From IMG/VR virus record IMGVR_UViG_3300029258_005404: 64,000 bases of DNA, one strand, 5' to 3'. The notes below the pieces were generated by a model. The model made no database searches. It was given only the letters and a program-made list of their open reading frames with translations, and had not been told where the DNA came from. The position numbers and the translations under genes were made by a program. Shown in pieces: positions 1,693 to 11,003 of the stretch. Source of the stretch: a virus. Every line of letters starts with the position of its first letter. Position 1 is the first letter of the stretch.

Positions 1693-2907
1693 ATGGCCAA
1701 AGTTAAAAAAGCTAATACTGGCCTTAACAGAACGGTTGTATTTGAAGTCAGTGTTGCTAATAATAATATTAAAAAACAAGTCATGGCGTCTATAGATAAA
1801 TATAGAGCAGTGGCACGAAAGATGTATTCATCGGTTGCGATGGCAGCAACTGCAGGAGCAACAATCGAAGTAAAAAATGGTGATGTCAGGGTTAAACCTT
1901 ATACTCAAAATTCAAAAGATATATTGTCAAAAGCATATAATGTGTCTGGAAAAGCTCAATTTTATGAATTAAGAAATTTCGTATTAAAAGATCATGCTAA
2001 TACATGGCAATCTGTAATATGGGATTCTTGCAGACTTGCAGTGGCTGGGACATGGAATCATGCTGATCCCGAATTTTCTAAAGGTGAAAAGAAGGTTGGA
2101 CGTGGCTGGTTATCACTCCAAGGCGCAAGAGCTTTTGGATTTTTCAATCGTTGTGGTATAGGTTTACCAAATACAAAATCTATACAATTTGGTTCAAAAA
2201 GTATGACGATGAAATGGGACAAGGAAATTGATGATGTAACATTTTTCGTTGACAGTAAGCTTCCCGGGAATACATTCTGGAAATTTAAGAACATAAGAGA
2301 TGGTGTATGGGAAAGGGGTACATGTTACATTGGGTGGAAGTATAAAAATATCGGTGGTGGTAAAAAAGTAAAAACACTTTATATAACAATGACCTATAAA
2401 CTTCCAGAAAATTATTTCAATGAGGAATCAGGTGAAGGTGTTATGATTGTTGAGTTTACAGATGATCCTGAAAACGGAATCGTCATGTATTCTGATGATA
2501 AGTTCCATTATTCCGACAAAATAAGTGTGTATGAGGCTATAGCATGGAATAAGCAACTCAATGTTGTAAAGGATTACTACAAAAAACAAAGAGCATCAGT
2601 TGGTGGTAGAGATAAGCAGTGGGGTCTCAACCAAAGTCTCATGGTTATTAGTAACAAAAGTGAAAATTTGACCAAAAGGAGAATTAACGGCAAAAAGCAT
2701 CGGAATCATATATGGGCCAACAGAATAGTGGCGAGAGTTAGACAATGGGGTATGGGTGTTGTTGTACTCAAAGATTTTCCTGACGGCCTATTAATTGATC
2801 AGGAATGGTCTATGTTTGAGCTTAAAGAAATATTGAAGTACAAACTTAGAGAAATTGGGTGTGAGTTGAAAACCTATAATACCCCAAAAGAAGAAGAAGC
2901 TGCTTAG
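1693..2907 (+). CDS. TnpB/Cas12f-like protein, predicted nuclease-dead and C-terminally truncated, CRISPR-associated
   Basis: AAGGAGG SD; RTVVFEV (WED-like), HRNHIWANRIVARVRQWGMGVVVLKDF and WSMFELKEILKYKLREIG align by eye to TnpB H..SR.IV..A......IV.EDL and W.F..L...LEYKA...G; RuvC-I region VMIVEFT, RuvC-II E replaced by K; ends before the Zn finger; array directly downstream. Confidence 0.75.
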   Translation: MAKVKKANTGLNRTVVFEVSVANNNIKKQVMASIDKYRAVARKMYSSVAMAATAGATIEVKNGDVRVKPYTQNSKDILSKAYNVSGKAQFYELRNFVLKDHANTWQSVIWDSCRLAVAGTWNHADPEFSKGEKKVGRGWLSLQGARAFGFFNRCGIGLPNTKSIQFGSKSMTMKWDKEIDDVTFFVDSKLPGNTFWKFKNIRDGVWERGTCYIGWKYKNIGGGKKVKTLYITMTYKLPENYFNEESGEGVMIVEFTDDPENGIVMYSDDKFHYSDKISVYEAIAWNKQLNVVKDYYKKQRASVGGRDKQWGLNQSLMVISNKSENLTKRRINGKKHRNHIWANRIVARVRQWGMGVVVLKDFPDGLLIDQEWSMFELKEILKYKLREIGCELKTYNTPKEEEAA

Positions 2908-2918
2908 GAATCTAAATA

Positions 2919-3080
2919 GCGCACGGGAGAAATTAAAAATATAGGCGCTATGGAAATTGTGTTATACTAGGCCCTAAAAAAAATATCAGAGTAATTTTTT
3001 CATACGAGTGAGGGAAATTGATTAGGCTACAGCGCCATTCTAAAAGATTTCTGAACTTATTTGTACATAAGGAAAGCTGA
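2919..3080 (+). repeat. Decayed CRISPR repeat relics (up to 4)
   Basis: Relics ending at 2960, 3021 and 3080 are in 59-61-nt register with the array; 2993-3021 matches 17/29; mismatches mostly C>T/G>A; a fourth at 2919-2935 is out of register. Confidence 0.7.
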
Positions 3081-3112
3081 GTGGTGAGATTTTGGATGTT
3101 GTATCAATTATT

Positions 3113-3504
3113 GTTTCTTCCGCGCGCGCGAGGGAAACTGGGATTTGCATTTAATTTCAACTACCTGCGCAAGTATGCTCCGCGCGCGCGGGGGAAACTG
3201 GATATTCGGCCGGGAGAGGGCGAAACAGCTGTAGTATGCTCCGCGCGCGCGAGGGAAACTGGGTTACTTCGTACCTCTATTCCATCATATCCTAGTATTC
3301 TCCGCGCGCGCGATGGAAACTGGGGAAATTTCCAATCATACTGGCGTGACCATAGTATTCTCCGCGCGCGCGAGGAAAACTGGGTTTCTTTTATATACAA
3401 AAGGGTGCAATATTGTATTCTCCGCGCGCGCGAGGGAAACTGGCCCCCCAGCATTTGAACTTGCCGTTATCGTTCGTTTCTTTCGCGCGCGCGAGGGAAA
3501 CTGG
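3113..3504 (+). CRISPR. CRISPR array: 7 x 29-nt repeats (consensus GTATTCTCCGCGCGCGCGAGGGAAACTGG), 6 unique spacers of 31-32 nt
   Basis: Repeats start at 3113, 3173, 3234, 3295, 3355, 3415, 3476; resemble type I-E repeats; plus orientation inferred, not proven. Confidence 0.97.
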
Positions 3505-3544
3505 TTTGGGATATTTCGGTTTTAAAAATAAATTTATATCCGGA

Positions 3545-3661
3545 AATAGTAAGGTGAACACCCTTGCATTTCTTTACAAGTTACAACTGAGGCTACAGTT
3601 TGTCTCGTGGATAGTAGAGTGCTATCTAATGTTCCGATGGAACACCCTCGCGCGCCTTTTT
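3545..3661 (+). ncRNA. Candidate tracrRNA/scaffold RNA with two anti-repeat segments
   Basis: CAGTTTGTCTCGTG (3596-3609) and CCCTCGCGCGC (3645-3655) complementary to the repeat 3' half; hairpins 3610-3626 and 3631-3643; T5 at 3657-3661. Confidence 0.55.
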
Positions 3662-3684: not shown

Positions 3685-3909
3685 ATGACTAAATTAAAAC
3701 CGAAAATATGTCCACACTGCGGGGTATTATTTACCCCCGCAGTGCCTGGACAAAAATATCACAGTCCAAGATGTCGGAAAAATGATTATAGTTCCAGAAA
3801 ACAATATTTTCCACGCTTCGGTAATGATGCAAAAATGAGACATGTCTTCAGAACAGAGAAAAACGTTATAACAAAATACTCAAAGGAGGTAGAATTTGCC
3901 AAAAAGTAA
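3685..3909 (+). CDS. Small Zn-ribbon protein
   Basis: CPHCG...F....PGQKYHSPRC motif; AAAGGA SD. Confidence 0.6.
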   Translation: MTKLKPKICPHCGVLFTPAVPGQKYHSPRCRKNDYSSRKQYFPRFGNDAKMRHVFRTEKNVITKYSKEVEFAKK

Positions 3910-3910
3910 A

Positions 3911-4138
3911 ATGGAGGAATTCCGTGAAAATGGAAAAAAAATACAGGAAGGATGTATTGCTGAAATGGAAAACCTTCGAAAGTCGTGGATAGATTATAAA
4001 GCTAATAATGAGACACATGGTGACGCCATGCTCCTCATACGCCAATCCAGAGCGCATGCATACAATGCGTCAGCGGCTGTCCGTGAAAGGGTAATAGAGA
4101 TGGGTCTCCATGTGGGTAGCGGCTATTACCATCCTTAA
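3911..4138 (+). CDS. Hypothetical protein
   Basis: ORF abutting the upstream stop; ATG 3911 preferred to track start 3896. Confidence 0.55.
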   Translation: MEEFRENGKKIQEGCIAEMENLRKSWIDYKANNETHGDAMLLIRQSRAHAYNASAAVRERVIEMGLHVGSGYYHP

Positions 4139-4209
4139 AAAAAAGTACTAATTAAATGTACTTTTTTTTATTTATTTATAATAAACCAGTTTAAGAATTG
4201 AGGATTAAC

Positions 4210-4515
4210 ATGGGCTATATATTGCAATCAAATTTTGATGGTTTAATCGGAAAAAAGTGCAGAGTTGAACCAGGTGATCGACCGGGTATTGATAAGTCAC
4301 ATAGTGTATCTGTAAAAGCAGGAGACGAACAGAATGGTGTTATTATTGGATATGTTGTAGAGCTTAACAATGAAATGTTTGAGAACGATCCTGTTGATAT
4401 TGAAACTATGCCATTAACTGTTTTTCTTTATATTCTTATTACGCATAATAATGGTGATGGAAACCAATGGTCTGAAATTGTTAGGGAGGATTTTTCATAT
4501 GTAACATTTAATTAA
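4210..4515 (+). CDS. Hypothetical protein
   Basis: GAGGA SD before ATG 4210. Confidence 0.6.
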   Translation: MGYILQSNFDGLIGKKCRVEPGDRPGIDKSHSVSVKAGDEQNGVIIGYVVELNNEMFENDPVDIETMPLTVFLYILITHNNGDGNQWSEIVREDFSYVTFN

Positions 4516-4703
4516 ATATTTCTTTAACCAAAACGTATATTATTAGTAAGGAGTCAAACAATGTTACCAATATAGGTTACTTCAATTCACCCGCCGTAGA
4601 TTTTTTACCGCAAGCGCAAACCGCCGTAATCTCTATTATACCATTCTGTATAATACCAATTAGTATAACAAATTTTATTTAATTTATTTTTAAGGAGATT
4701 ACA

Positions 4704-5030
4704 TTGAATATTTCAATTGAACAGATTAAACTTATCAGTCAGTTCAAGAAAGAGCTGAAATTAGAAGCGGCTGCGCTTCAACGCCTTAAACAGGACACTA
4801 AAAATGCCCAGAGAGAAGGTGATGTTGCTACTGGAGACCTTCAGTTTAAGATTATCAAGAACAAAAATAAATTTCGGCATCGCCACATTGCATACTGTAT
4901 GTTGCGCGGAAAGAAATACAATGAAATCGAAAAAAAATGCAGATGTAATCCAAACTTCAAAACAATCGAACTGATTAAAGGTAAATATACATACCATGGT
5001 ACAGAAGAAACTATATCTGCTGCTGCGTAA
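4704..5030 (+). CDS. Hypothetical basic protein overlapping the pth2-like gene
   Basis: AAGGAG SD, TTG start; RHRHIAYCMLRGK motif. Confidence 0.65.
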   Translation: MNISIEQIKLISQFKKELKLEAAALQRLKQDTKNAQREGDVATGDLQFKIIKNKNKFRHRHIAYCMLRGKKYNEIEKKCRCNPNFKTIELIKGKYTYHGTEETISAAA

Positions 5031-5304
5031 AGATTTAGGTACAATATATAGTATGGTTCAGGCCGGACATGCTATTGCAGAGTTCGCATTAAACGGCAAT
5101 ACTGCAGCATTTAAAATATGGGGAAACGGAACCCTCGTCTACCTCGGGGTTCCGGATCTTCAATCATTAGAGTTCTGGCAGGAAAGGCTTAAAGTCCGTG
5201 AAAAAGAATTCGTGTGCTTCTATGAGCCTGATATAAATAACGAATTAACAACCATCGCATGTATCGACGATGGAAAAATATTTAAGAAGTTGCGGTTGGC
5301 TTAA
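4996..5304 (+). CDS. pth2: Peptidyl-tRNA hydrolase type 2 (Pth2)-like protein
   Basis: KLYLLLRKDL...MVQAGHA...F.EPDI.NELT.IA motifs of the PTH2 family. Confidence 0.8.
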   Translation: MVQKKLYLLLRKDLGTIYSMVQAGHAIAEFALNGNTAAFKIWGNGTLVYLGVPDLQSLEFWQERLKVREKEFVCFYEPDINNELTTIACIDDGKIFKKLRLA

Positions 5305-5327
5305 AAAGTGCTAAAGGAGTATGTATA

Positions 5328-5642
5328 ATGGATTTTAAAATTGAAATTATTGAAGATATTCAAGATAAGTATGTAATATTTGATACACATCCTAATGTAA
5401 ATTATTATACCGTATCAATGCTGCTTGAAGGTCCATCTGTGGGGGATTTTGTTATAGATTTACAATTTGGAATAAACAGCCCAAGGTTTAAATTATATAT
5501 GTATAGTATTGAAAAGGTTTTTGATTTATTTTGTTGTATACATAAATATAAATTAGACCATGAAAATGATTTTGAATCTATTACTCTTGTAATAAATAAG
5601 CACAACAATACAATTGGCGCGTTTTTTACACAAAGTTTGTAA
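5328..5642 (+). CDS. Hypothetical protein
   Basis: AAGGAG SD, 104 aa. Confidence 0.6.
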   Translation: MDFKIEIIEDIQDKYVIFDTHPNVNYYTVSMLLEGPSVGDFVIDLQFGINSPRFKLYMYSIEKVFDLFCCIHKYKLDHENDFESITLVINKHNNTIGAFFTQSL

Positions 5643-5685
5643 GGTTTTTAAAAGATTCCAATTAGCATAAGGAAAATTATTTTAT

Positions 5686-5871
5686 ATGACTGATGACGAA
5701 AAAAAAAGAATTGATAATATGACACAGTATGAACTATGTTATATGTGGAGATTCGCAAAATCTGGAGAATCACTTCTGCAAGGTGATACTGGTAAGTATT
5801 TTGCAGAAGTTTTAAAAAAGAAAGGCGGATTTACTCCTGAAATATCAAAACATCTCGGTTGGAAAAAATAA
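5686..5871 (+). CDS. Small hypothetical protein
   Basis: AAGGA SD, 61 aa. Confidence 0.6.
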   Translation: MTDDEKKRIDNMTQYELCYMWRFAKSGESLLQGDTGKYFAEVLKKKGGFTPEISKHLGWKK

Positions 5872-5874
5872 TAT

Positions 5875-5957
5875 GGCAGGGTGATGCAGTGTTTAGACGT
5901 TCACGCCAACGATATGGTTCCGTGATTGCGGAGGTTCAAATCCTTCCCCTGCTACCA
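5875..5957 (+). tRNA. tRNA-like RNA with non-canonical, expanded anticodon arm
   Basis: Acceptor GGCAGGG/CCCTGCT, T-arm GGAGG-TTCAAAT-CCTTC, 3' ACCA; anticodon stem TCACG/CGTGA encloses 15 nt; D-arm imperfect. Confidence 0.65.
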
Positions 5958-5961
5958 TAAA

Positions 5962-6188
5962 TTAATGAGAACAATGTTCTCATTAACCCAACGTCGCAGC
6001 CCCTGACGGTCAGGTCCGGTAAAAGCCCGGTTAAATCGGGGAGTGGTTAGCGTAAGCGCCACCTCGCGTCTTAATGACGGGGTCTTCGAGCAGAGCCTGG
6101 CAATAAATTATGGTGTGGGATAACGCTGATATTTCCCGAGAATGAGCGATAGTGATGGGGTGCTCAAATATCAGCGGGCTTCCCCACT
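5962..6188. ncRNA. Structured GC-rich RNA region between tRNA genes
   Basis: Perfect 11-bp stems 5962-5972/5976-5986 and 6124-6134/6166-6176 plus several short hairpins; no ORF. Confidence 0.45.
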
Positions 6189-6193
6189 ACAAT

Positions 6194-6268
6194 GCGCCTG
6201 TAGCTCAGTGTTAGAGCAGTGACCTCTAAAATCACTGGTCGGTGGTTAGAATCCACCCAGGCGCTCCA
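6194..6268 (+). tRNA. tRNA with CUA anticodon (amber suppressor-type)
   Basis: GCGCCTG-TA-GCTC-AGTGTTA-GAGC-A-GTGAC-CTCTAAA-ATCAC-TGGTC-GGTGG-TTAGAAT-CCACC-CAGGCGC-T-CCA; C31.A39 mismatch. Confidence 0.85.
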
Positions 6269-6349
6269 AATTATGAGGGTTGGTATACAACTATATTACC
6301 TGCATCCTCGATCAATTCATCGCAAATACTCTTAAAAGGAAATCTTCAA

Positions 6350-6850
6350 ATGCGACCTGAGAATCTCTTCCTAAAACGTATTAAAGAATTACAGGGCACT
6401 GCAGAACAATATTGTGGCCTCTCTGCTAATACACAGGACAAATACTGGCCTTTCTATGACTCCTATGAAGCCCTCGAAAAAGACTGCTTCAAACGTGAAG
6501 ATGGCATCTGGCAACTTAATTATAAAATAAATACCCATATAAAAGGAGGCAGTACCGTCCTCTTTATATGGCGTATAGCTCCTAACTATTGTTGCCACGG
6601 CCAACCTTTATATACCGAAGACAAAATACAGGAATTCCTGAAACAAAGCGAAACCGAAAAAGTATTACTCATCCACAAAGACTATGAATTCGTCTGGACA
6701 TGGAATGAATTCCACAGACCTACAAGAAATATCTGGGGCCTGAAAAAAGGCCCAGACTATCTCGTCCTGCGAAAGAACGGAGAAATACTGGTAAAAACCC
6801 AAGTGAAAAAACATTTCCTGGAAACAGTCCATCGAATCTTAACCTCTTAA
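6350..6850 (+). CDS. Hypothetical protein with atypical (C-ending) codon usage
   Basis: AAAGGA SD before ATG 6350; track start 6242 lies inside the tRNA. Confidence 0.6.
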   Translation: MRPENLFLKRIKELQGTAEQYCGLSANTQDKYWPFYDSYEALEKDCFKREDGIWQLNYKINTHIKGGSTVLFIWRIAPNYCCHGQPLYTEDKIQEFLKQSETEKVLLIHKDYEFVWTWNEFHRPTRNIWGLKKGPDYLVLRKNGEILVKTQVKKHFLETVHRILTS

Positions 6851-7065
6851 AAATCAGTCTGGAGTAGAATGTAGTACTCTTTGTGGCTGCCAACGGTTGC
6901 GAAAAATGTAAAAAATCACCCCCGATTTTGAAACTGCACCACACCATGGGCCGAAGAATTCTTTCTACGCAATAATTCTTCGGCACCATTCGGTGGCTTT
7001 TGCTTAGGCTTTTCGCGTTTCATCTCACCTTAATAAATCTATCTTAGTTATATATTAAAAGGAGA

Positions 7066-7476
7066 ATGATTTTGAGTAATTTAGACAGTAAAGATGATTT
7101 TTCAAAAATAAATGATAATTTGTTGTTATCATTATTTGAAGATCTTGTTATAGACTTTAAAATGTTACCGTGCACCTCGTGTGATGCAAGAAAACAGAAT
7201 GCGGCAATAGTTCTAAATAATGTTAGAGCAGAAATTTTAAAAAGACTGACAGATAAAACACGTATCTTAAGAAAAACATTAACAGTAGAACAAATAGAAG
7301 CTGGCAATAACGTTGCATCTGAAATGTATACAGCATCAATTCAAAAAGCAATTGGACTTGGCGGTTGTGAAGAAATTGATATGAATAAGTTTAAATTTAA
7401 AAATATAGTCAAGCGCTACTTGGATGGAGATATTGACAGTGTTACCGGTATATGGTTGGCTATGGAGGGAGAATAA
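7066..7476 (+). CDS. Hypothetical protein
   Basis: AAGGAG SD, 136 aa. Confidence 0.65.
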   Translation: MILSNLDSKDDFSKINDNLLLSLFEDLVIDFKMLPCTSCDARKQNAAIVLNNVRAEILKRLTDKTRILRKTLTVEQIEAGNNVASEMYTASIQKAIGLGGCEEIDMNKFKFKNIVKRYLDGDIDSVTGIWLAMEGE

Positions 7477-8307
7477 ATGGAAAAAAGAGTTATTGAAATA
7501 TTAAGAGAAATAGAATTAATGGAAGATGTCAAAATTATCTACGCCTGTGAATCTGGGAGTAGGGTGTGGGGTTTTGAATCAGATAATAGTGATTATGACG
7601 TCAGGTTTGTCTATATCAGGCCAATAAAATCTTATTTCTCAATTAGTCCTCTCAGAGATGTAATCGATCGTAATAAGGGTAAGGAAAAAACCAGTCAGTA
7701 TATCAGACAGCTTGAGAAAGATGGTATTGATATTGTTGGATTTGACATAAGTAAAACCCTCAAGATGATTGCTGATGGAAATCCGGCTCTTGCTGAATGG
7801 CTTCACTCTCCTGTAGTGTATATGGAAAAGATGTTCGTCGTTGCAGCGCTGCAGAGGCTTTCTGAGAGGTTCTTCAAATCAAAAGCCGGTATTTATCATT
7901 ACGTACATATGGCTAAAAGGAATTTTACTCAGTACATCAAAAATGTTGATGGTGATGTAATAATTAAAAAATACCTGTATGTTCTCAGGCCACTCTACGC
8001 CTGCGAGTATATTATAATAACAAATGGCAGTGTTCCACCAATGAACTTTAGTAAATTAATAGATTGGTCTGAAAGCTCTGGTACTAAAGAGTTTAGTACA
8101 ATAAAAAGATCTGTTGAAAATATTATTACCAGGAAAAGAGAAGGGGAGGAGCTTGGCCACGGTCCACATGTTGAGCTTTTTGATGATACATGCGCAAAAC
8201 TACTTGAGTCATATGATGGATATGCAAAAACACTTGGTATAGAAGCGCTAACTGAGGAAGAATGGCAAAGTCTTGATGATGCGTTTTTTGATTTAGTTTG
8301 CAAATAA
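7477..8307 (+). CDS. Predicted nucleotidyltransferase (Pol-beta superfamily, Nuc-transf/YcgL-like)
   Basis: YACESGSR.WGF.S..SDYDVRFVY, KKYLYVLRPL motifs. Confidence 0.85.
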   Translation: MEKRVIEILREIELMEDVKIIYACESGSRVWGFESDNSDYDVRFVYIRPIKSYFSISPLRDVIDRNKGKEKTSQYIRQLEKDGIDIVGFDISKTLKMIADGNPALAEWLHSPVVYMEKMFVVAALQRLSERFFKSKAGIYHYVHMAKRNFTQYIKNVDGDVIIKKYLYVLRPLYACEYIIITNGSVPPMNFSKLIDWSESSGTKEFSTIKRSVENIITRKREGEELGHGPHVELFDDTCAKLLESYDGYAKTLGIEALTEEEWQSLDDAFFDLVCK

Positions 8308-8458
8308 AGTAATGTATTATATCAAATAGAAAATTCTATAAAACAACATCCTCACTTGAGGTTTTTGAGCGATGTTGATCTTGAAAAGTATACACAATAT
8401 ATTATTTTATATGTGTGTAAACAAAAAAAAAATTACATTTAACCAAAGGAGGTCAAAT

Positions 8459-8881
8459 ATGCGTGCTGTTTTAAAGCTGTGTGGCATATTTGCGTGTTTG
8501 ATTGTAATATTATTATTATTTTACACATCATATCCGGATAATGTTTCTATCAATGGCGGCAGAAATACTGAGTTGAGGTCAGTAGAAATGGAAGTAGATA
8601 ATACTATCCCTGACGAAATTACTTTTCAAAAACCAAGCATTGTTACAGAAAATACAATTCTATTCAATTTTCAATTTCTGGATAATCTGGAAAATCCAAT
8701 ATTTATCAATTTGAAAAAGTCAATATTTAATAATAATCAAAAGCGATATAATTTTAAGTTTGATAAGAGTGTTACAAATAATAAAATTTATTTAAGCAAT
8801 TCAATATATAAAGAAGAGTCCCTGGGAGTATTCACGCTTGACGTGCTTAAACTACCAATTAATCAGTGCTTAAATATATAA
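8459..8881 (+). CDS. Membrane-anchored hypothetical protein
   Basis: AGGAGG SD before ATG 8459; N-terminal hydrophobic helix. Confidence 0.6.
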   Translation: MRAVLKLCGIFACLIVILLLFYTSYPDNVSINGGRNTELRSVEMEVDNTIPDEITFQKPSIVTENTILFNFQFLDNLENPIFINLKKSIFNNNQKRYNFKFDKSVTNNKIYLSNSIYKEESLGVFTLDVLKLPINQCLNI

Positions 8882-8904
8882 ATAAATTTCTTTTTAAATC
8901 AAGA

Positions 8905-8935
8905 AGCCTCCATAGAAATATGGAGGTTTTTTTTT
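8905..8935 (+). terminator. Rho-independent terminator
   Basis: GCCTCCATA-GAAA-TATGGAGGT hairpin plus T-run. Confidence 0.8.
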
Positions 8936-8961
8936 ATTTTATATAATACTTTTTTTTTAAC

Positions 8962-8989
8962 TGTTATTGTTTTATTTATTTTGGTATAA
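8962..8989 (+). promoter_or_regulatory. Phage promoter motif
   Basis: TGTTATTG-N12-TGGTATAA. Confidence 0.65.
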
Positions 8990-9055
8990 TAATTATGGAT
9001 AATGTAATTATTTTTTTTTAAATAATTAAAATTCTAATAAATATATAAGGTTTTA

Positions 9056-9309
9056 GATGGTGTTTCGCCATCAATATTTTGTAATAAGGCCTCGATAACC
9101 TGGGAACGGCCACAGTCCGCCACGTCGTTGGCCTTGACCTCTTCAGCAAGCTGAAGAATTCAAGGCCACTCGGTGGCTCCCTTATGGCCTTACTCCCTGG
9201 TTATCTCACCTTCGTGTCTCAATATTAGTTATATATTAATAATTTCGATTGGCGCCATGTCGTACAGCCAAATTGCCGGCTTCCGGGTCTGTACTTCTTA
9301 TGGCGCCAA
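9056..9309. ncRNA. Structured intergenic RNA(s)
   Basis: Nested stems 9129-9168, crossing stems 9085-9105/9186-9205, second hairpin 9249-9309 followed by T10. Confidence 0.5.
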
Positions 9310-9333
9310 CTCGATCTACCTTTTTTTTTTAGC

Positions 9334-9361
9334 TGTTATCGCGTCACCAAATGTGGCATAA
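9334..9361 (+). promoter_or_regulatory. Phage promoter motif
   Basis: TGTTATCG-N12-TGGCATAA. Confidence 0.65.
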
Positions 9362-9437
9362 CTATTATGTGAGTAATAATTATTAATTTTAACAAACGGA
9401 GAAATAATATGTGGAATAATAAATGGTGGAGTTTTTT

Positions 9438-9830
9438 ATGTCAAGAATGATTTATCAGACACGCCCTGCCGATGTTATAGTAGCTGTTGAATTATATAAA
9501 AAAGTATTTTCCTGAACACTTTTTAGTTATGATGATAGTGAATTAATAAAACTTGCCTATAAATGTGAATATGGTTCTATTGGCAGTTATCTATTAGATG
9601 CTTTTGATAGTTTTATAGAAAATATGCCTGACATTCCTCCATACTTAAGGAGGTATATTAAATCAGATGAGCAATTAAAAGAAATGTTCGAAATAGAAAC
9701 AGAAGAAACCATTGTCAAATTATCTAATTCAATTTTTGATTTAAGTGCTATTTTTGATAAAGAGTATATATCAGATCACATATTTGAAATAGTAGATGAT
9801 ATTGAAATTTGTGATACTGATTATTTTTAA
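9438..9830 (+). pseudogene. ORF interrupted by one in-frame TGA (9513-9515)
   Basis: GGAG SD then ATG 9438; frame open to 9830 apart from that TGA; track ORF 9624-9830 is its 3' part. Confidence 0.5.
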
Positions 9831-9853
9831 ATTCAAACTGTTAAAGGTGAAAT

Positions 9854-10261
9854 ATGAATAGTTGGAGGAAAGATATGTATGACAATTGGCTTCGTAAGCT
9901 GCTTCAGAAGGCTGTAGAGGCCAAGAATATAGCAGGGTTATTTATGATGGACTTAGCACCGGAAGCTCAGAAACACATAGATAAGGCCGGCCTTAAAACG
10001 AAACCTGAACAAGAATTAAGAACGCTGGTTGTCGAACATTTTGGAAAAGAGTACTTCATCGCATTTATTGATGCGTTTGATGGAAATTTATATGCAGGTT
10101 TTTTTTTGAGTTACAACAGGTCCCATCGAGAATTATACCAGGCTCTGCAAATTATAAAGGTAAATGGATTGGATATTGCAAAGTTAGTAAATAAAGGTGA
10201 TTATGAAGTGTTGTACAACATAAACCGCGCTGAGATTATAGTTCGGCGCACTGGAGGTTAA
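9854..10261 (+). CDS. Hypothetical protein
   Basis: AAAGGTG SD, 135 aa. Confidence 0.65.
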   Translation: MNSWRKDMYDNWLRKLLQKAVEAKNIAGLFMMDLAPEAQKHIDKAGLKTKPEQELRTLVVEHFGKEYFIAFIDAFDGNLYAGFFLSYNRSHRELYQALQIIKVNGLDIAKLVNKGDYEVLYNINRAEIIVRRTGG

Positions 10262-10262
10262 A

Positions 10263-10454
10263 ATGCTCGGCTCAATATGCGGGGTTCCATTTCATGTTGT
10301 AGAAGCGACACTTAAACAAGGTGATACTCCTGAAGAAAAAGCAGATGCATTCAACCTTATTGCTCATATCGCAGATGAATCTGTGTCGCTTGAAAGCATT
10401 GTGGAAAATGTTATGAATGGTACGGTGCCAAAAGTTGTGGCGCCGAAAGAATAA
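10263..10454 (+). CDS. Small hypothetical protein
   Basis: GGAGG SD, 63 aa. Confidence 0.6.
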   Translation: MLGSICGVPFHVVEATLKQGDTPEEKADAFNLIAHIADESVSLESIVENVMNGTVPKVVAPKE

Positions 10455-10475
10455 TATTGAGGCGCGATTTACGTC

Positions 10476-10547
10476 GCACAACAACCGTATGTTGAAATGG
10501 GATAGAGGCATGCGGTTGTACCACATCAACATACTATCCCGTTGTGA
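10476..10547 (+). repeat. attC-like folded recombination site 1
   Basis: GCACAAC-AACCG-TATGTTGA ... TCAACATA-CTATCCC-GTTGTGA; near-copy at 10927-11003. Confidence 0.55.
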
Positions 10548-10997
10548 GCAATACCGCCCGGCTCTTAAAATTATAGGGCGGCCATTTATAACGAAAGGAA
10601 TTTGCCATGAACTTCGGGCAAGCCATCGAGTCGATGAAGCGCGGCGAGAAAGTCTGCCGTGCTGGTTGGAATGGAAAAGGTATGTTTATCGTTCTTATGG
10701 GAGCGTTGAGCCTGCCGCCGTACAATACACAGGGTACGGAGCGCAAGGTTAATGACCGCACTGCAAAGTGGATTGGCGAAGATAAGCCGCTGGACAGCCA
10801 GCCGTATTTCGCCATGTACACCGCGCAGCAGAAGTGGCAGCCGGGATGGCTTGCTTCTCAGGCCGATATGTTAGCCGATGATTGGGAAGTGGCCGCCTGA
10901 ACACTATGGTAGCCGGGCGGTACAGCTCACAACACCCGTATGGATGCCATGCGGTCAAAAAATATGTGGGCGTACCGCACAGCACCATACTATCACG
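10542..10997 (+). mobile_element. Integron-cassette-like insertion carrying the tad2-like gene
   Basis: Bounded by GTT-containing sites; 21/23-bp inverted repeat 10541-10563/10911-10933; GC 34/60 at 10621-10680 versus 12/60 at 11101-11160. Confidence 0.55.
10607..10900 (+). CDS. tad2: DUF2829 / Thoeris anti-defence 2 (Tad2) family protein
   Basis: MNFGQAIE.MK.G.KV.R.GWNGKGMFI...W.ASQ.DMLADDWE, matching Tad2/DUF2829; AAAGGA SD. Confidence 0.85.
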   Translation: MNFGQAIESMKRGEKVCRAGWNGKGMFIVLMGALSLPPYNTQGTERKVNDRTAKWIGEDKPLDSQPYFAMYTAQQKWQPGWLASQADMLADDWEVAA

Positions 10998-11003
10998 TTG
11001 TAA
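10927..11003 (+). repeat. attC-like folded recombination site 2
   Basis: TCACAAC-ACCCG-TATGG ... CCATA-CTATCAC-GTTGTAA with internal TGCGGT/ACCGCA stem. Confidence 0.55.

What the first reader, a model, noticed from the sequence alone, without database searches (positions are those of the whole stretch)
10476..11003. Tad2-family anti-defence gene inside an integron-cassette-like unit
Seen: two related 72-77-nt hairpins flank the gene, each arranged xCACAAC-5 nt-TATG.. ..CATA-7 nt-GTTGT, like attC R''-L''-L'-R'. The left arm of site 2 (GCTCACAAC) is the perfect complement of the right end of site 1 (GTTGTGAGC), and this extends to a 21/23-bp inverted repeat (10541-10563 versus 10911-10933). 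That is the pattern expected if a circular cassette with one long hairpin site inserted at G/TT. The insert is much GC-richer than its flanks (34/60 versus 12/60 in sampled lines). Established: integron integrases recombine folded single-stranded attC at the AAC/GTT triplet; Tad2/DUF2829 proteins sequester Thoeris and CBASS signalling molecules. Inference: the phage acquires counter-defence genes through integron-like cassettes. No tyrosine recombinase is visible in this window. The core (GTTGTGA) deviates from GTTRRRY, so it may be a distinct site family.
Basis: partly seen in the sequence, partly recalled or inferred. Interest (0 to 1): 0.82.

Follow-up and report, generated by a model that had tools for sequence, protein, structure and literature searches.

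The report
Anti-defence gene on phage integron-like cassette
A large AT-rich phage has picked up two small foreign genes, one of them the immune-signal sponge Tad2, as ready-made mobile cassettes bounded by folded DNA sites that behave like integron sites, which suggests that phages trade counter-defence genes through a cassette system of their own.

Summary
Two related 66- and 71-nt imperfect hairpins flank a genuine tad2 gene in a GC-rich island, and they occur nowhere else in the 186-kb phage genome.

The insert is two cassettes (window 10210-11000), a 63-aa ORFan and tad2. Each ends in a hairpin closed by CAAC...GTTG. Each starts, directly after the preceding GTTG, with about 20 nt that are the reverse complement of the sequence in front of its own hairpin. 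That is the integron cassette signature.

The same 460-bp tad2 unit occurs at 96.5% identity in a metagenome contig with different neighbours, and the identity breaks exactly at GTTG on both sides. A relative of the recipient phage lacks both cassettes and both hairpins. The pair therefore probably entered at a bare GTTG just before a native stop codon.

Arrays of such cassettes occur in several unrelated uncultured phages. In three contigs the array starts about 30 nt behind a compact Xer-type tyrosine recombinase. The window phage has no recombinase of its own.

The sites are not canonical attC, and I found no paper describing them. Earlier reports of this scan found the same kind of array on other DNA.

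The parts
9854..10213 (+). Native part of the recipient phage's 135-aa ORF. It would end at the TAA at 11001-11003 if the insert were removed, giving 120 aa.
   Evidence: The homologue P0002 (124 aa, 66% identity) lies in the syntenic relative L131, and similarity runs to about window 10182. The last 16 sense codons and the stop of the present ORF (10214-10261) are cassette DNA.
10210..10213 (+). Left junction core GTTG, the inferred secondary target site and the start of cassette 1.
   Evidence: The inverted-repeat (IR) signature starts here. A 377-nt contig in runs X5 and X7 matches 10210-10257 only, with unrelated sequence before 10210.
10210..10229 (+). Left inverted repeat (IR_L) of cassette 1. 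It continues into a conserved 5' module with a TATAG motif up to about 10257.
   Evidence: 16/20 reverse complement of 10463-10482. The module is homologous to the 5' module of the cassette that follows tad2 in L118.
10263..10454 (+). Cargo of cassette 1, a 63-aa ORFan.
   Evidence: ORF list. No Pfam or PHROG match.
10463..10482 (+). Right inverted repeat (IR_R) of cassette 1, ending in the 5' core CAAC.
10479..10544 (+). Hairpin site 1, the recombination-site-like hairpin of cassette 1, closed by CAAC/GTTG.
10541..10587 (+). Core GTTG between the two cassettes plus IR_L of cassette 2. It contains a local hairpin CCGCCC...GGGCGG and the TATAGG motif.
   Evidence: 47-nt IR at 74% with 10887-10933 (I1), and 18/20 over the first 20 nt. 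The 96.5% identity with L118 starts exactly at 10541.
10607..10900 (+). tad2, a 97-aa gene of the Tad2/AcrIIA7 family and the cargo of cassette 2.
   Evidence: PF11195 E 1.8e-26. PDB 8wjd E 2.7e-20.
10887..10933 (+). IR_R of cassette 2, ending in the 5' core CAAC.
10930..11000 (+). Hairpin site 2, the hairpin of the tad2 cassette. Its closing GTTG (10997-11000) is the right junction with native AT-rich DNA.
   Evidence: Identity with L118 ends exactly at 11000. GC content drops from 55% to 24% here.

Best explanation
Window 10210-11000 is a two-cassette insert from a phage-borne gene-cassette system that works like an integron.

Each cassette has this structure: [GTTG core | about 20-47-nt left inverted repeat with a conserved 5' module | small gene | right inverted repeat | CAAC - imperfect hairpin - GTTG].

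If a cassette is circularised, the two inverted repeats and the hairpin form one long folded site. Recombination in or next to the 3' GTT(G/A) core splits that site. This explains why each cassette's first bases pair with the flank of its own hairpin and not with the hairpin in front of it.

The pair (63-aa ORFan plus tad2) was most likely cut out of an array in a GC-richer phage. It was then joined into a bare GTTG that stood directly before the stop codon of a native gene of this unrelated, AT-rich, 186-kb phage.

The likely enzyme is a compact Xer-type tyrosine recombinase, which other phages encode immediately upstream of such arrays. It would have acted in trans during co-infection, because the recipient has no recombinase.

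The cargo gives the recipient a Tad2-type sponge for Thoeris/CBASS signalling nucleotides.

Shown: the anatomy, the family, the exact junctions, the absence from a relative, and the recombinase-array linkage in other phages.

Inferred: the circular intermediate, the folded single-strand substrate, the identity of the enzyme, action in trans, and Tad2 activity.
For: 1. The same unit occurs elsewhere. L118 carries the tad2 unit at 96.5% identity over 460 bp. The identity starts at GTTG (10541) and ends at GTTG (11000), and both flanks are unrelated.

2. A second independent case. L120 and L127 share a 632-bp two-cassette block at 100% identity, bounded by GTTG on both sides. L127 has one extra cassette inserted after a GTTG.

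3. The left end at 10210 is a real boundary. Another contig, seen in two runs, shares 10210-10257 only.

4. The integron-type signature holds across the family. For 9-10 of 12 hairpins chosen by motif alone, the 16 nt before CAAC are 12-16/16 complementary to the 16 nt after an upstream GTTG. The hairpin's own 3' flank gives a mean of 5.75/16, and flanks of other hairpins give 6.5/16. Shuffled sequences give about 0 hits.

5. The hairpins share one grammar with covarying stems. Among 60 non-redundant hairpins, A follows the 5' core in 56/60, C precedes the 3' core in 51/60, and the 3' spacer is longer than the 5' spacer in 41/60.

6. The recipient's relative L131 is syntenic, lacks the insert and both hairpins, and its homologous ORF ends ...GGGGTTGATAA. 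Removing 10214-11000 leaves GAAGTGTTG-TAA, an in-frame stop.

7. These two cassettes are the only ones in the whole genome.

8. Recombinase linkage. In L162, L164 and L165 a 279-307-aa Xer-type recombinase is followed by stop, a small hairpin, about 9 nt, GTTG, and then an array with the IR signature (PF00589 E 2.7e-39). Two further homologues show the same gene order.

9. Other cargo fits counter-defence: a Lar-like restriction alleviation protein and methyltransferases.
Against: - No recombinase of the tyrosine, serine or Y1-HUH type is present in the window phage or in the array-bearing phage G001. Seven of eight array-bearing viral records lack one.
- I observed no circular cassette and no empty-site allele. 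The only relative is about 66% identical at protein level, so the empty site is inferred and not read.
- The site grammar differs from attC. The core flanks do not follow GTTRRRY, the spacers are asymmetric, and the single bulge lies on the same arm as the crossover.
- Adjacent hairpins are sometimes near-identical (96% in L127; the ends of site 1 and site 2 are 82-85%). Homologous recombination between hairpins would also produce this.
- Mixed GTTA/GTTG cores in L162 give conflicting assignments of the fourth base, so the crossover cannot be placed to the nucleotide.
- Everything rests on sequence comparison.
Confidence: 0.62

Rival explanations
1. PeSL-like shuffling. In this reading the hairpins and the conserved 5' modules are terminator/promoter-type regulatory elements. 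Cassettes move by ordinary homologous recombination between similar copies, through minicircles as proposed for T4-like phages. No site-specific enzyme is involved.
For: - The conserved 5' module with a TATAGG motif looks like a promoter, and the hairpin follows each gene like a terminator.
- Hairpins of one type recur on different cassettes (L114/L115/L123 and L116/L125).
- L127 carries two 96% identical hairpins around the extra cassette.
- PeSL-mediated modular shuffling is documented (PMC2839356, PMC4122927).
Against: - The recipient genome has no other copy of the element to recombine with.
- Its left junction has no hairpin at all.
- The upstream hairpins of the window and L118 differ over their whole length, yet the identity starts exactly at GTTG.
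- The three bases next to the core covary within a cassette and not within a hairpin. Homologous exchange does not predict this.
- No U-tract follows the hairpins.
- The sigma-70 scan is not above chance.
Confidence: 0.13
2. The sites are true, if divergent, integron attC sites, so this would be a CALIN (a cluster of attC sites lacking an integrase). The cassettes are moved by a bacterial integron integrase of the host, as shown for attC sites of some virulent phages.
For: - The sites share the attC layout: an R box with the AAC/GTT triplets, a spacer, an L stem, a bulged base, a variable terminal structure and lengths of 45-166 nt (attC features in PMC5027507).
- The boundary lies at the 3' GTT.
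- CALINs exist in phages and are recombined by IntI1 (PMC9892861).
Against: - The core flanks do not follow RYYYAAC/GTTRRRY.
- The spacers are 0-2 nt against 4-6 nt, instead of 5-6 nt on each arm.
- The bulge lies on the crossover arm.
- The canonical element is absent from one genome of each of 185,579 bacterial and archaeal species.
- The recombinase found next to arrays is Xer-like. It scores below the IntI cut-off and lacks the IntI-specific insertion.
Confidence: 0.1
3. Single-strand 'peel-and-paste' by an HUH (IS200/IS605-like) enzyme. The enzyme would recognise the subterminal hairpins and insert 3' of the tetranucleotide GTTG. Because each unit also ends in GTTG, insertion would regenerate the target and build tandem arrays.
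For: - The insertion sits at a bare GTTG with no upstream hairpin.
- The cut site lies about 9 nt 3' of the hairpin foot.
- Both cassette ends carry small hairpins.
- Arrays and multi-cassette units follow naturally from this mechanism.
Against: - No Y1 transposase is present in G000 or G001.
- The enzyme actually found beside arrays is a tyrosine recombinase.
- The long inverted-repeat complementarity of cassette ends is not a feature of that family (my own knowledge).
Confidence: 0.06
4. The elements are only RNA structures, for example RNase III-type processing stems around each gene. They were carried along in a single illegitimate horizontal transfer and have no role in mobility.
For: - All elements lie on the coding strand between genes.
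- The stems covary.
- Some hairpins are translated as gene tails (G001, L130).
Against: - Both ends of the transferred block, and of other shared blocks, coincide with the 4-nt core.
- Each GTTG would have to pair with two different CAAC partners in one RNA.
- A recombinase gene is linked to the arrays.
Confidence: 0.04

Closest known systems
Integron gene cassettes, attC sites and CALINs (clusters of attC sites lacking an integrase), including CALINs in virulent phages (Qi et al. 2023, PMC9892861; attC features in Nivina et al. 2016, PMC5027507)
   Same: - One small co-oriented gene per unit.
- A 3' imperfect hairpin with conserved AAC/GTT triplets, a spacer, a second stem, a bulged base and a variable tip.
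- Site length 45-166 nt.
- The unit boundary at the 3' GTT core.
- The first bases of a cassette pair with the 5' flank of its own site.
- Tandem arrays, and arrays without an integrase.
- A tyrosine recombinase at the head of some arrays.
   Different: - The core flanks do not follow RYYYAAC/GTTRRRY.
- The complementarity of cassette ends runs 20-47 nt instead of 7.
- The spacers are asymmetric: 0-2 nt on the 5' arm and 4-6 nt on the 3' arm.
- A single bulge lies on the crossover arm.
- Cassettes carry a conserved promoter-like 5' module.
- The associated recombinase is a 279-307-aa Xer type without the IntI-specific insertion, transcribed in the same direction as the array.
- The canonical element was found only in phage or metagenome DNA, not in bacterial genomes.
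PeSL (promoter-early stem-loop) cassettes of T4-like phages (Arbiol 2010, PMC2839356; Comeau 2014, PMC4122927)
   Same: Small accessory genes of phages are flanked by repeated hairpin-containing intergenic motifs that mark points of gene exchange. Minicircle intermediates have been proposed for them.
   Different: - PeSLs are many copies of one promoter-terminator motif within a genome and recombine by homology.
- Here the recipient has only the two imported copies.
- The junctions sit at a fixed 4-nt core.
- The ends of each unit are complementary to each other.
Xer/dif-based mobile modules (pdif modules of Acinetobacter plasmids; IMEXs such as CTX phage, which uses a folded single-strand site)
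   Same: A Xer-family tyrosine recombinase is the likely enzyme. A folded single-strand site is also known for the CTX phage (my own knowledge).
   Different: There is no 28-bp dif-like 11-6-11 site here. The sites are 45-166-nt hairpins and the units form tandem arrays behind a phage-encoded recombinase.
Tad2 / AcrIIA7 (Pfam PF11195; PDB 8wjd, 8v3e, 8sme)
   Same: The full-length 97-aa cargo protein matches the family over its whole length.
   Different: None of 80 other Tad2 loci in IMG/VR is cassette-borne. Here the gene has been recruited into a mobile cassette.

Membership tests
Integron attC site / gene cassette | Imperfect hairpin whose base (R box) carries the conserved AAC...GTT triplets | tested here: met
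   All motif-selected hairpins close with CAAC/GTTG. In L162 the cores are TAAC/GTTA, so only AAC/GTT is invariant.
Integron attC site / gene cassette | Cassette boundary in the 3' core, with the first bases of the cassette complementary to the 5' flank of its own site | tested here: met
   Shared blocks end at GTTG. Complementarity to an upstream GTTG flank is 12-16/16, against 5.75/16 for the hairpin's own 3' flank.
Integron attC site / gene cassette | R'' = RYYYAAC and R' = GTTRRRY consensus | tested here: not met
   The R' boxes read GTTGTGA, GTTGTAA and GTTGTAC, and the R'' boxes read GCACAAC and TCACAAC. The family is variable after GTTG.
Integron attC site / gene cassette | Unpaired central spacer of 5-6 nt on each arm, and 2-3 extrahelical bases on the arm opposite the crossover (PMC5027507) | tested here: not met
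   The 5' spacer is 0-2 nt in 52/60 hairpins and the 3' spacer is 4-6 nt in 33/60. There is one bulge on the 3' arm of the coding strand, the arm that carries the crossover core. These values come from minimum-free-energy folding and are approximate.
Integron attC site / gene cassette | Recognised by the IntegronFinder/HattCI attC model and recombined by an IntI integrase | not testable with these tools
   The attC covariance model is not in Rfam. The Rfam search found nothing at the sites.
Integron (platform) | Integron integrase with the IntI-specific additional domain, next to attI and the array | tested here: not met
   G000 and G001 have no PF00589 match. The recombinase beside arrays in L162 scores 137 bits against TIGR02249 (cut-off 265). 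It has 24 aa where IntI4 has 66.
PeSL cassettes of T4-like phages | Many copies of one composite promoter/stem-loop motif in the same genome, with exchange by homology between copies | tested here: not met
   There are only two copies in 186 kb, both inside foreign DNA. The left junction has no hairpin.
IS200/IS605-type elements | Y1 HUH transposase, subterminal hairpins and insertion 3' of a fixed tetranucleotide | tested here: inconclusive
   G000 and G001 have no PF01797 match. The fixed GTTG target and the end hairpins are present.
Tad2 / AcrIIA7 (PF11195) | Full-length match to the family profile and to solved members | tested here: met
   PF11195 scores 92.9 bits (cut-off 25), covering residues 1-95. 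PDB 8wjd gives E 2.7e-20. Nucleotide binding was not tested.

The most novel reading that the evidence does not exclude
Phages run an integron-like gene-capture system of their own. Its parts would be a compact Xer-type recombinase, an attI-like site and arrays of self-contained cassettes bounded by hairpins. The cassettes would circulate in trans between unrelated phage families and serve as a shared pool of counter-defence genes. Under this reading, this window records one such transfer into a phage that has neither an array nor a recombinase.
Probability: 0.5. Interest if true: 0.9.

Novelty: new variant of a known kind. Interest (0 to 1): 0.78.

Why it matters
If the reading holds, the spread of counter-defence genes among phages is not only a matter of chance recombination. 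It would be served by a dedicated cassette system with exact cut-and-paste points. That would explain how an anti-Thoeris/CBASS sponge can move between phages as different as a BPP-1-like podovirus-type phage (56% GC) and a 186-kb AT-rich phage.

The system is directly testable, because the site, the candidate recombinase and the attI-like sequence are all in hand. It could also serve as a search handle: unknown genes sitting in such cassettes are candidates for new anti-defence functions.

It would also extend structure-specific, integron-type recombination to a different branch of tyrosine recombinases.

Tried and rejected
- Rfam, at gathering and at permissive thresholds, found nothing at the sites. 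ARAGORN found no tRNA-like gene there.
- IMG/VR searches with the two native flanking proteins found no relative. A later search of the large protein collection found one.
- The right-half motif alone gave 25 IMG/VR matches, of which 24 were chance.
- Three of the 18 metagenome matches and the single bacterial-genome match are chance hits in a Bacteroidales contig.
- None of 80 loci with Tad2 relatives carries the elements or the inverted-repeat signature.
- L135 turned out to be a fragment of the same phage and not a new context.
- Exact-protein look-ups of two cassette neighbours failed, probably because my start codons differ from the called ones.
- Two contigs with the exact Tad2 protein in another context had no DNA available.
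- The G001 array region has no match among cultured phages.
- A single-protein search with the recombinase found only itself in IMG/VR.
- Laying contigs of partial-holder runs showed no joint and no empty-site form. The parts of the stretch without cover in runs X5-X7 say nothing.
- I considered a terminal-inverted-repeat transposon bounded by 10541-10933 and rejected it, because the shared block includes the hairpin beyond the right repeat.
- I considered reading the conserved halves as remnants of coding sequence (NNRM...ILSRC) and rejected it, because the two halves are in different frames in different copies.
- I tried to place the crossover to the nucleotide from the mixed GTTA/GTTG cores of L162. 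One junction argues each way.
Full report
**1. What is in the sequence**

The window is part of a complete 186,450-bp IMG/VR phage record with direct terminal repeats. All genes around the finding lie on the + strand.

- Between 10400 and 11000 the GC content is 45-58%. The flanks have 22-30%.
- The ORF at 10607-10900 is a full-length Tad2 protein. It matches PF11195 with E 1.8e-26 and the solved structures SptTad2 8wjd (E 2.7e-20), AcrIIA7, Tad2 8v3e and SPO1 gp34.65 8sme.
- Two related imperfect hairpins flank the gene: site 1 at 10479-10544 and site 2 at 10930-11000. They share CAACA(A/C)CCGTATG at the 5' end and CATACTATC(C/A)CGTTG at the 3' end, but their interiors differ.
- Each conserved half occurs only twice in the window and only twice in the genome, against 0.09-0.35 expected by chance.

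**2. The element belongs to a family**

- One IMG/VR contig (L007 = G001, 40,280 bp, 56% GC) and 15 metagenome contigs carry the same hairpin base with different interiors.
- In every case the hairpin is followed, after CGTTG, by three variable bases, a (G/T)(C/A)AATA motif, about 17 nt, TATAGG, a ribosome-binding site and the next small gene.
- G001 is a BPP-1-like podovirus-type phage. It has a P22-type portal and coat, terminase, DNA polymerase A, DUF2800, an Enc34-type ssDNA-binding protein, an SNF2 helicase and a PriCT-2 primase. Its hairpins lie in a row of small genes directly behind the primase gene.
- The canonical element is absent from one genome of each of 185,579 bacterial and archaeal species and from cultured phages.

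**3. The same tad2 unit sits in another context, with exact ends**

Contig L118 (1,093 bp, 51% GC) carries tad2 at 96.5% identity over 460 bp.

- The identity begins exactly at GTTGTGAGC (window 10541).
- It ends exactly at ...CACGTTG (window 11000).
- The sequence on both sides is unrelated.

L118 has a different, diverged hairpin in front of the unit and another cassette behind it.

A second independent case comes from L120 and L127. They share a 632-bp block of two units at 100% identity, bounded by GTTG on both sides, and L127 has one more unit inserted after a GTTG.

**4. The integron-type signature**

In a scan for 20-mers that start with GTTG and are the reverse complement of a 20-mer ending in CAAC 100-1600 nt downstream, almost every unit in every contig scored 15-20/20. 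Shuffled sequences gave about zero hits.

I ran a test free of that selection on 12 hairpins chosen by motif alone:

| Comparison with the 16 nt before CAAC | Complementarity |
|---|---|
| 16 nt after an upstream GTTG | 12-16/16 in 9 hairpins, a tenth with a 1-nt indel |
| Hairpin's own 3' flank | mean 5.75/16 |
| Flanks of other hairpins | mean 6.5/16 |

Each unit therefore starts, right after the preceding core, with the complement of the flank of its own hairpin. The three bases next to the core covary within a unit and not within a hairpin. This relation historically defined integron cassette boundaries. It arises when one long folded site in a circular cassette is split by recombination at one core.

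**5. The window holds two cassettes**

The window scan finds two units:

- GTTG 10210 to CAAC 10482 (16/20), closed by site 1.
- GTTG 10541 to CAAC 10933 (18/20), closed by site 2.

They are the only two in the whole genome (shuffles give 0.2).

The 5' module of the first unit (10220-10255) is homologous to the 5' module of the cassette that follows tad2 in L118. A 377-nt contig present in two runs of different studies matches 10210-10257 only, with other sequence before 10210.

Site 1 is therefore the hairpin of an imported 63-aa ORFan cassette and not a resident attachment site.

**6. The recipient and the target**

The 135-aa ORF upstream (9854-10261) has one homologue, P0002 (124 aa, 66% identity). 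It lies in a 149-kb contig (L131, 36% GC) that is syntenic with the window on both sides.

- L131 has no tad2, no 63-aa gene and no hairpins. Other small genes fill the gap.
- Similarity of the native ORF ends near 10182.
- The last 16 sense codons and the stop of the present ORF are cassette DNA.
- Deleting 10214-11000 gives ...GAA GTG TTG TAA, a 120-aa ORF.
- The L131 homologue ends ...GAA GGG GTT GAT AAA TGA.

I infer that the two-cassette unit joined a bare GTTG just before the native stop codon. This corresponds to what integron biology calls a secondary-site insertion. It explains why the left junction has no hairpin and the right junction has one. The empty site is inferred, because no close relative is available.

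**7. Grammar of the sites**

Sixty non-redundant hairpins from 20 loci share this form:

(C/T)AAC - A - [first stem of 5-6 bp, sequence free, strongly covarying: GCTAAA/TTTAGC, GGCCAA/TTGGCC, AACAAA/TTTGT, TCAGCA/TGCTGA ...] - further stem - variable tip - often one bulged base on the 3' arm - 3-6 unpaired nt - C - GTT(G/A)

- A follows the 5' core in 56/60.
- C precedes the 3' core in 51/60.
- The 3' spacer is longer than the 5' spacer in 41/60.
- Site length is 45-166 nt (median 84). Cassette length is 144-1404 nt (median 316).

In several cassettes the ORF runs into the hairpin, for example G001 and L130 with tails ...LRQLSTF* and ...LRELSAV*.

Compared with attC as described in PMC5027507:

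- The layout is the same: R box with AAC/GTT, spacer, L box, extrahelical base, variable terminal structure, and a length range of 57-141 bp for attC.
- The metrics differ. There is no RYYYAAC/GTTRRRY consensus, the spacers are asymmetric, the bulge lies on the crossover arm, and the end complementarity is 20-47 nt instead of 7.

**8. The enzyme**

Neither the window phage (100% complete) nor G001 (95% complete) encodes a tyrosine recombinase, a serine recombinase or a Y1 transposase.

Earlier notes of this scan report the same kind of GTTG-core arrays in other phage genomes and a Xer-like recombinase in front of some of them. I tested that lead.

- A further IMG/VR scan found more arrays. L138 is a complete 213-kb phage with at least 13 units. 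L139, L148/L160, L150 and L151 also carry units with the signature, and L153 carries a family-type hairpin.
- Of eight such records, only G006 (L153/L162) has a PF00589 match, with E 2.7e-39.
- That gene (L162:8289-9212, 307 aa) is best matched by XerA/XerC models. It stays below the integron-integrase cut-off (TIGR02249: 137 bits against 265).
- It aligns end to end with XerA 4a8e. It has 24 residues where VchIntIA (2a3v) has 66, so it lacks the IntI-specific insertion.
- Its stop codon is followed by a small hairpin, about 9 nt, GTTG and then a cassette array. The cores in that array are partly GTTA/TAAC.
- Two homologues with 51-65% identity in other phage contigs (L164, L165) show the same order: stop, hairpin, GTTG, then an array with the signature.
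- Two more homologues without available DNA sit at the end of a replication module in front of rows of small genes.

A cognate recombinase is therefore plausible. For the window it would have to act in trans.

**9. Cargo**

Besides Tad2, cassettes or their neighbours include:

- a Lar-like restriction alleviation protein (phrog_599, E 3e-8);
- radical SAM proteins next to arrays;
- DNA methyltransferases behind the recombinase.

Most cargo genes are ORFans. None of 80 other Tad2 loci is cassette-borne, so tad2 was recruited into a cassette in this lineage.

**10. Rivals**

- *Homologous exchange between conserved intergenic hairpins (PeSL model; PMC2839356, PMC4122927).* This explains similar neighbouring hairpins, but it does not explain the hairpin-less left junction in a genome without other copies, the exact core junctions, or the covariation within units.
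- *Canonical attC with a host IntI (PMC9892861).* This remains possible but fails several defining features, and the element is not seen in bacterial genomes.
- *An HUH peel-and-paste mechanism.* This fits the bare GTTG target, but it lacks an enzyme and conflicts with the linked tyrosine recombinase.
- *An RNA-only role.* This does not explain the junctions.

**11. Verdict**

The finding is real.

Literature searches found integron components in phages and PeSLs, but no description of this site family or of its recombinase linkage.

The scan has reported the same kind of array before on other DNA. This window adds three things: an identified anti-defence cargo, the identical cassette in a second context, and a transfer into a phage that has no array of its own.

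Noticed in passing
window 6194-6268 (+): A tRNA with anticodon CTA, i.e. an amber suppressor. ARAGORN labels it tRNA-Pyl, and it scores 64 bits against the Rfam tRNA model. Whether the phage recodes TAG was not examined.
   Followed up: no
window 9050-9340: An ORF-less island with about 50% GC between AT-rich flanks. It contains long hairpins and has no Rfam match. It lies only 500 nt upstream of the gene that received the cassettes, so it may be another foreign insert or an unknown RNA. L131 shows only a 16-residue tblastx match at its edge.
   Followed up: partly
window 10210-10219: The left junction reads GTTGTACAAC, a perfect 10-nt palindrome formed by a 3' core directly abutting a 5' core-like sequence. 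I do not know whether this is chance or a trace of an empty unit.
   Followed up: no
window 10210-10257 and the 377-nt contig of runs X5/X7; L118:200-260 (-): The 48-nt 5' module of a cassette (left inverted repeat plus TATAG motif) recurs in front of different genes. Similarity ends just before the ribosome-binding site, so cassettes seem to be modular inside as well (5' module / gene / 3' site). This may bear on how cassettes are made.
   Followed up: partly
L032:326-458 (G001) and L130:339-467: Hairpins of 130 nt are translated. Their two arms encode the start (..QQLKxEI..) and the end (..LRxLSxx*) of a roughly 40-residue C-terminal tail shared by otherwise different cassette proteins. This agrees with earlier notes of the scan on translated hairpins.
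   Followed up: partly
L138 (IMGVR_UViG_3300037461_000428, complete 213-kb phage), locus 3800-10900: At least 13 cassettes with the same signature occur in a third, unrelated large phage with 39% GC and no tyrosine recombinase.
   Followed up: partly
window 1693-3661: Other first-stage notes describe a TnpB/Cas12-like ORF with a small repeat array here. I did not examine it. It shows that this phage carries several imported accessory modules near its left end.
   Followed up: no
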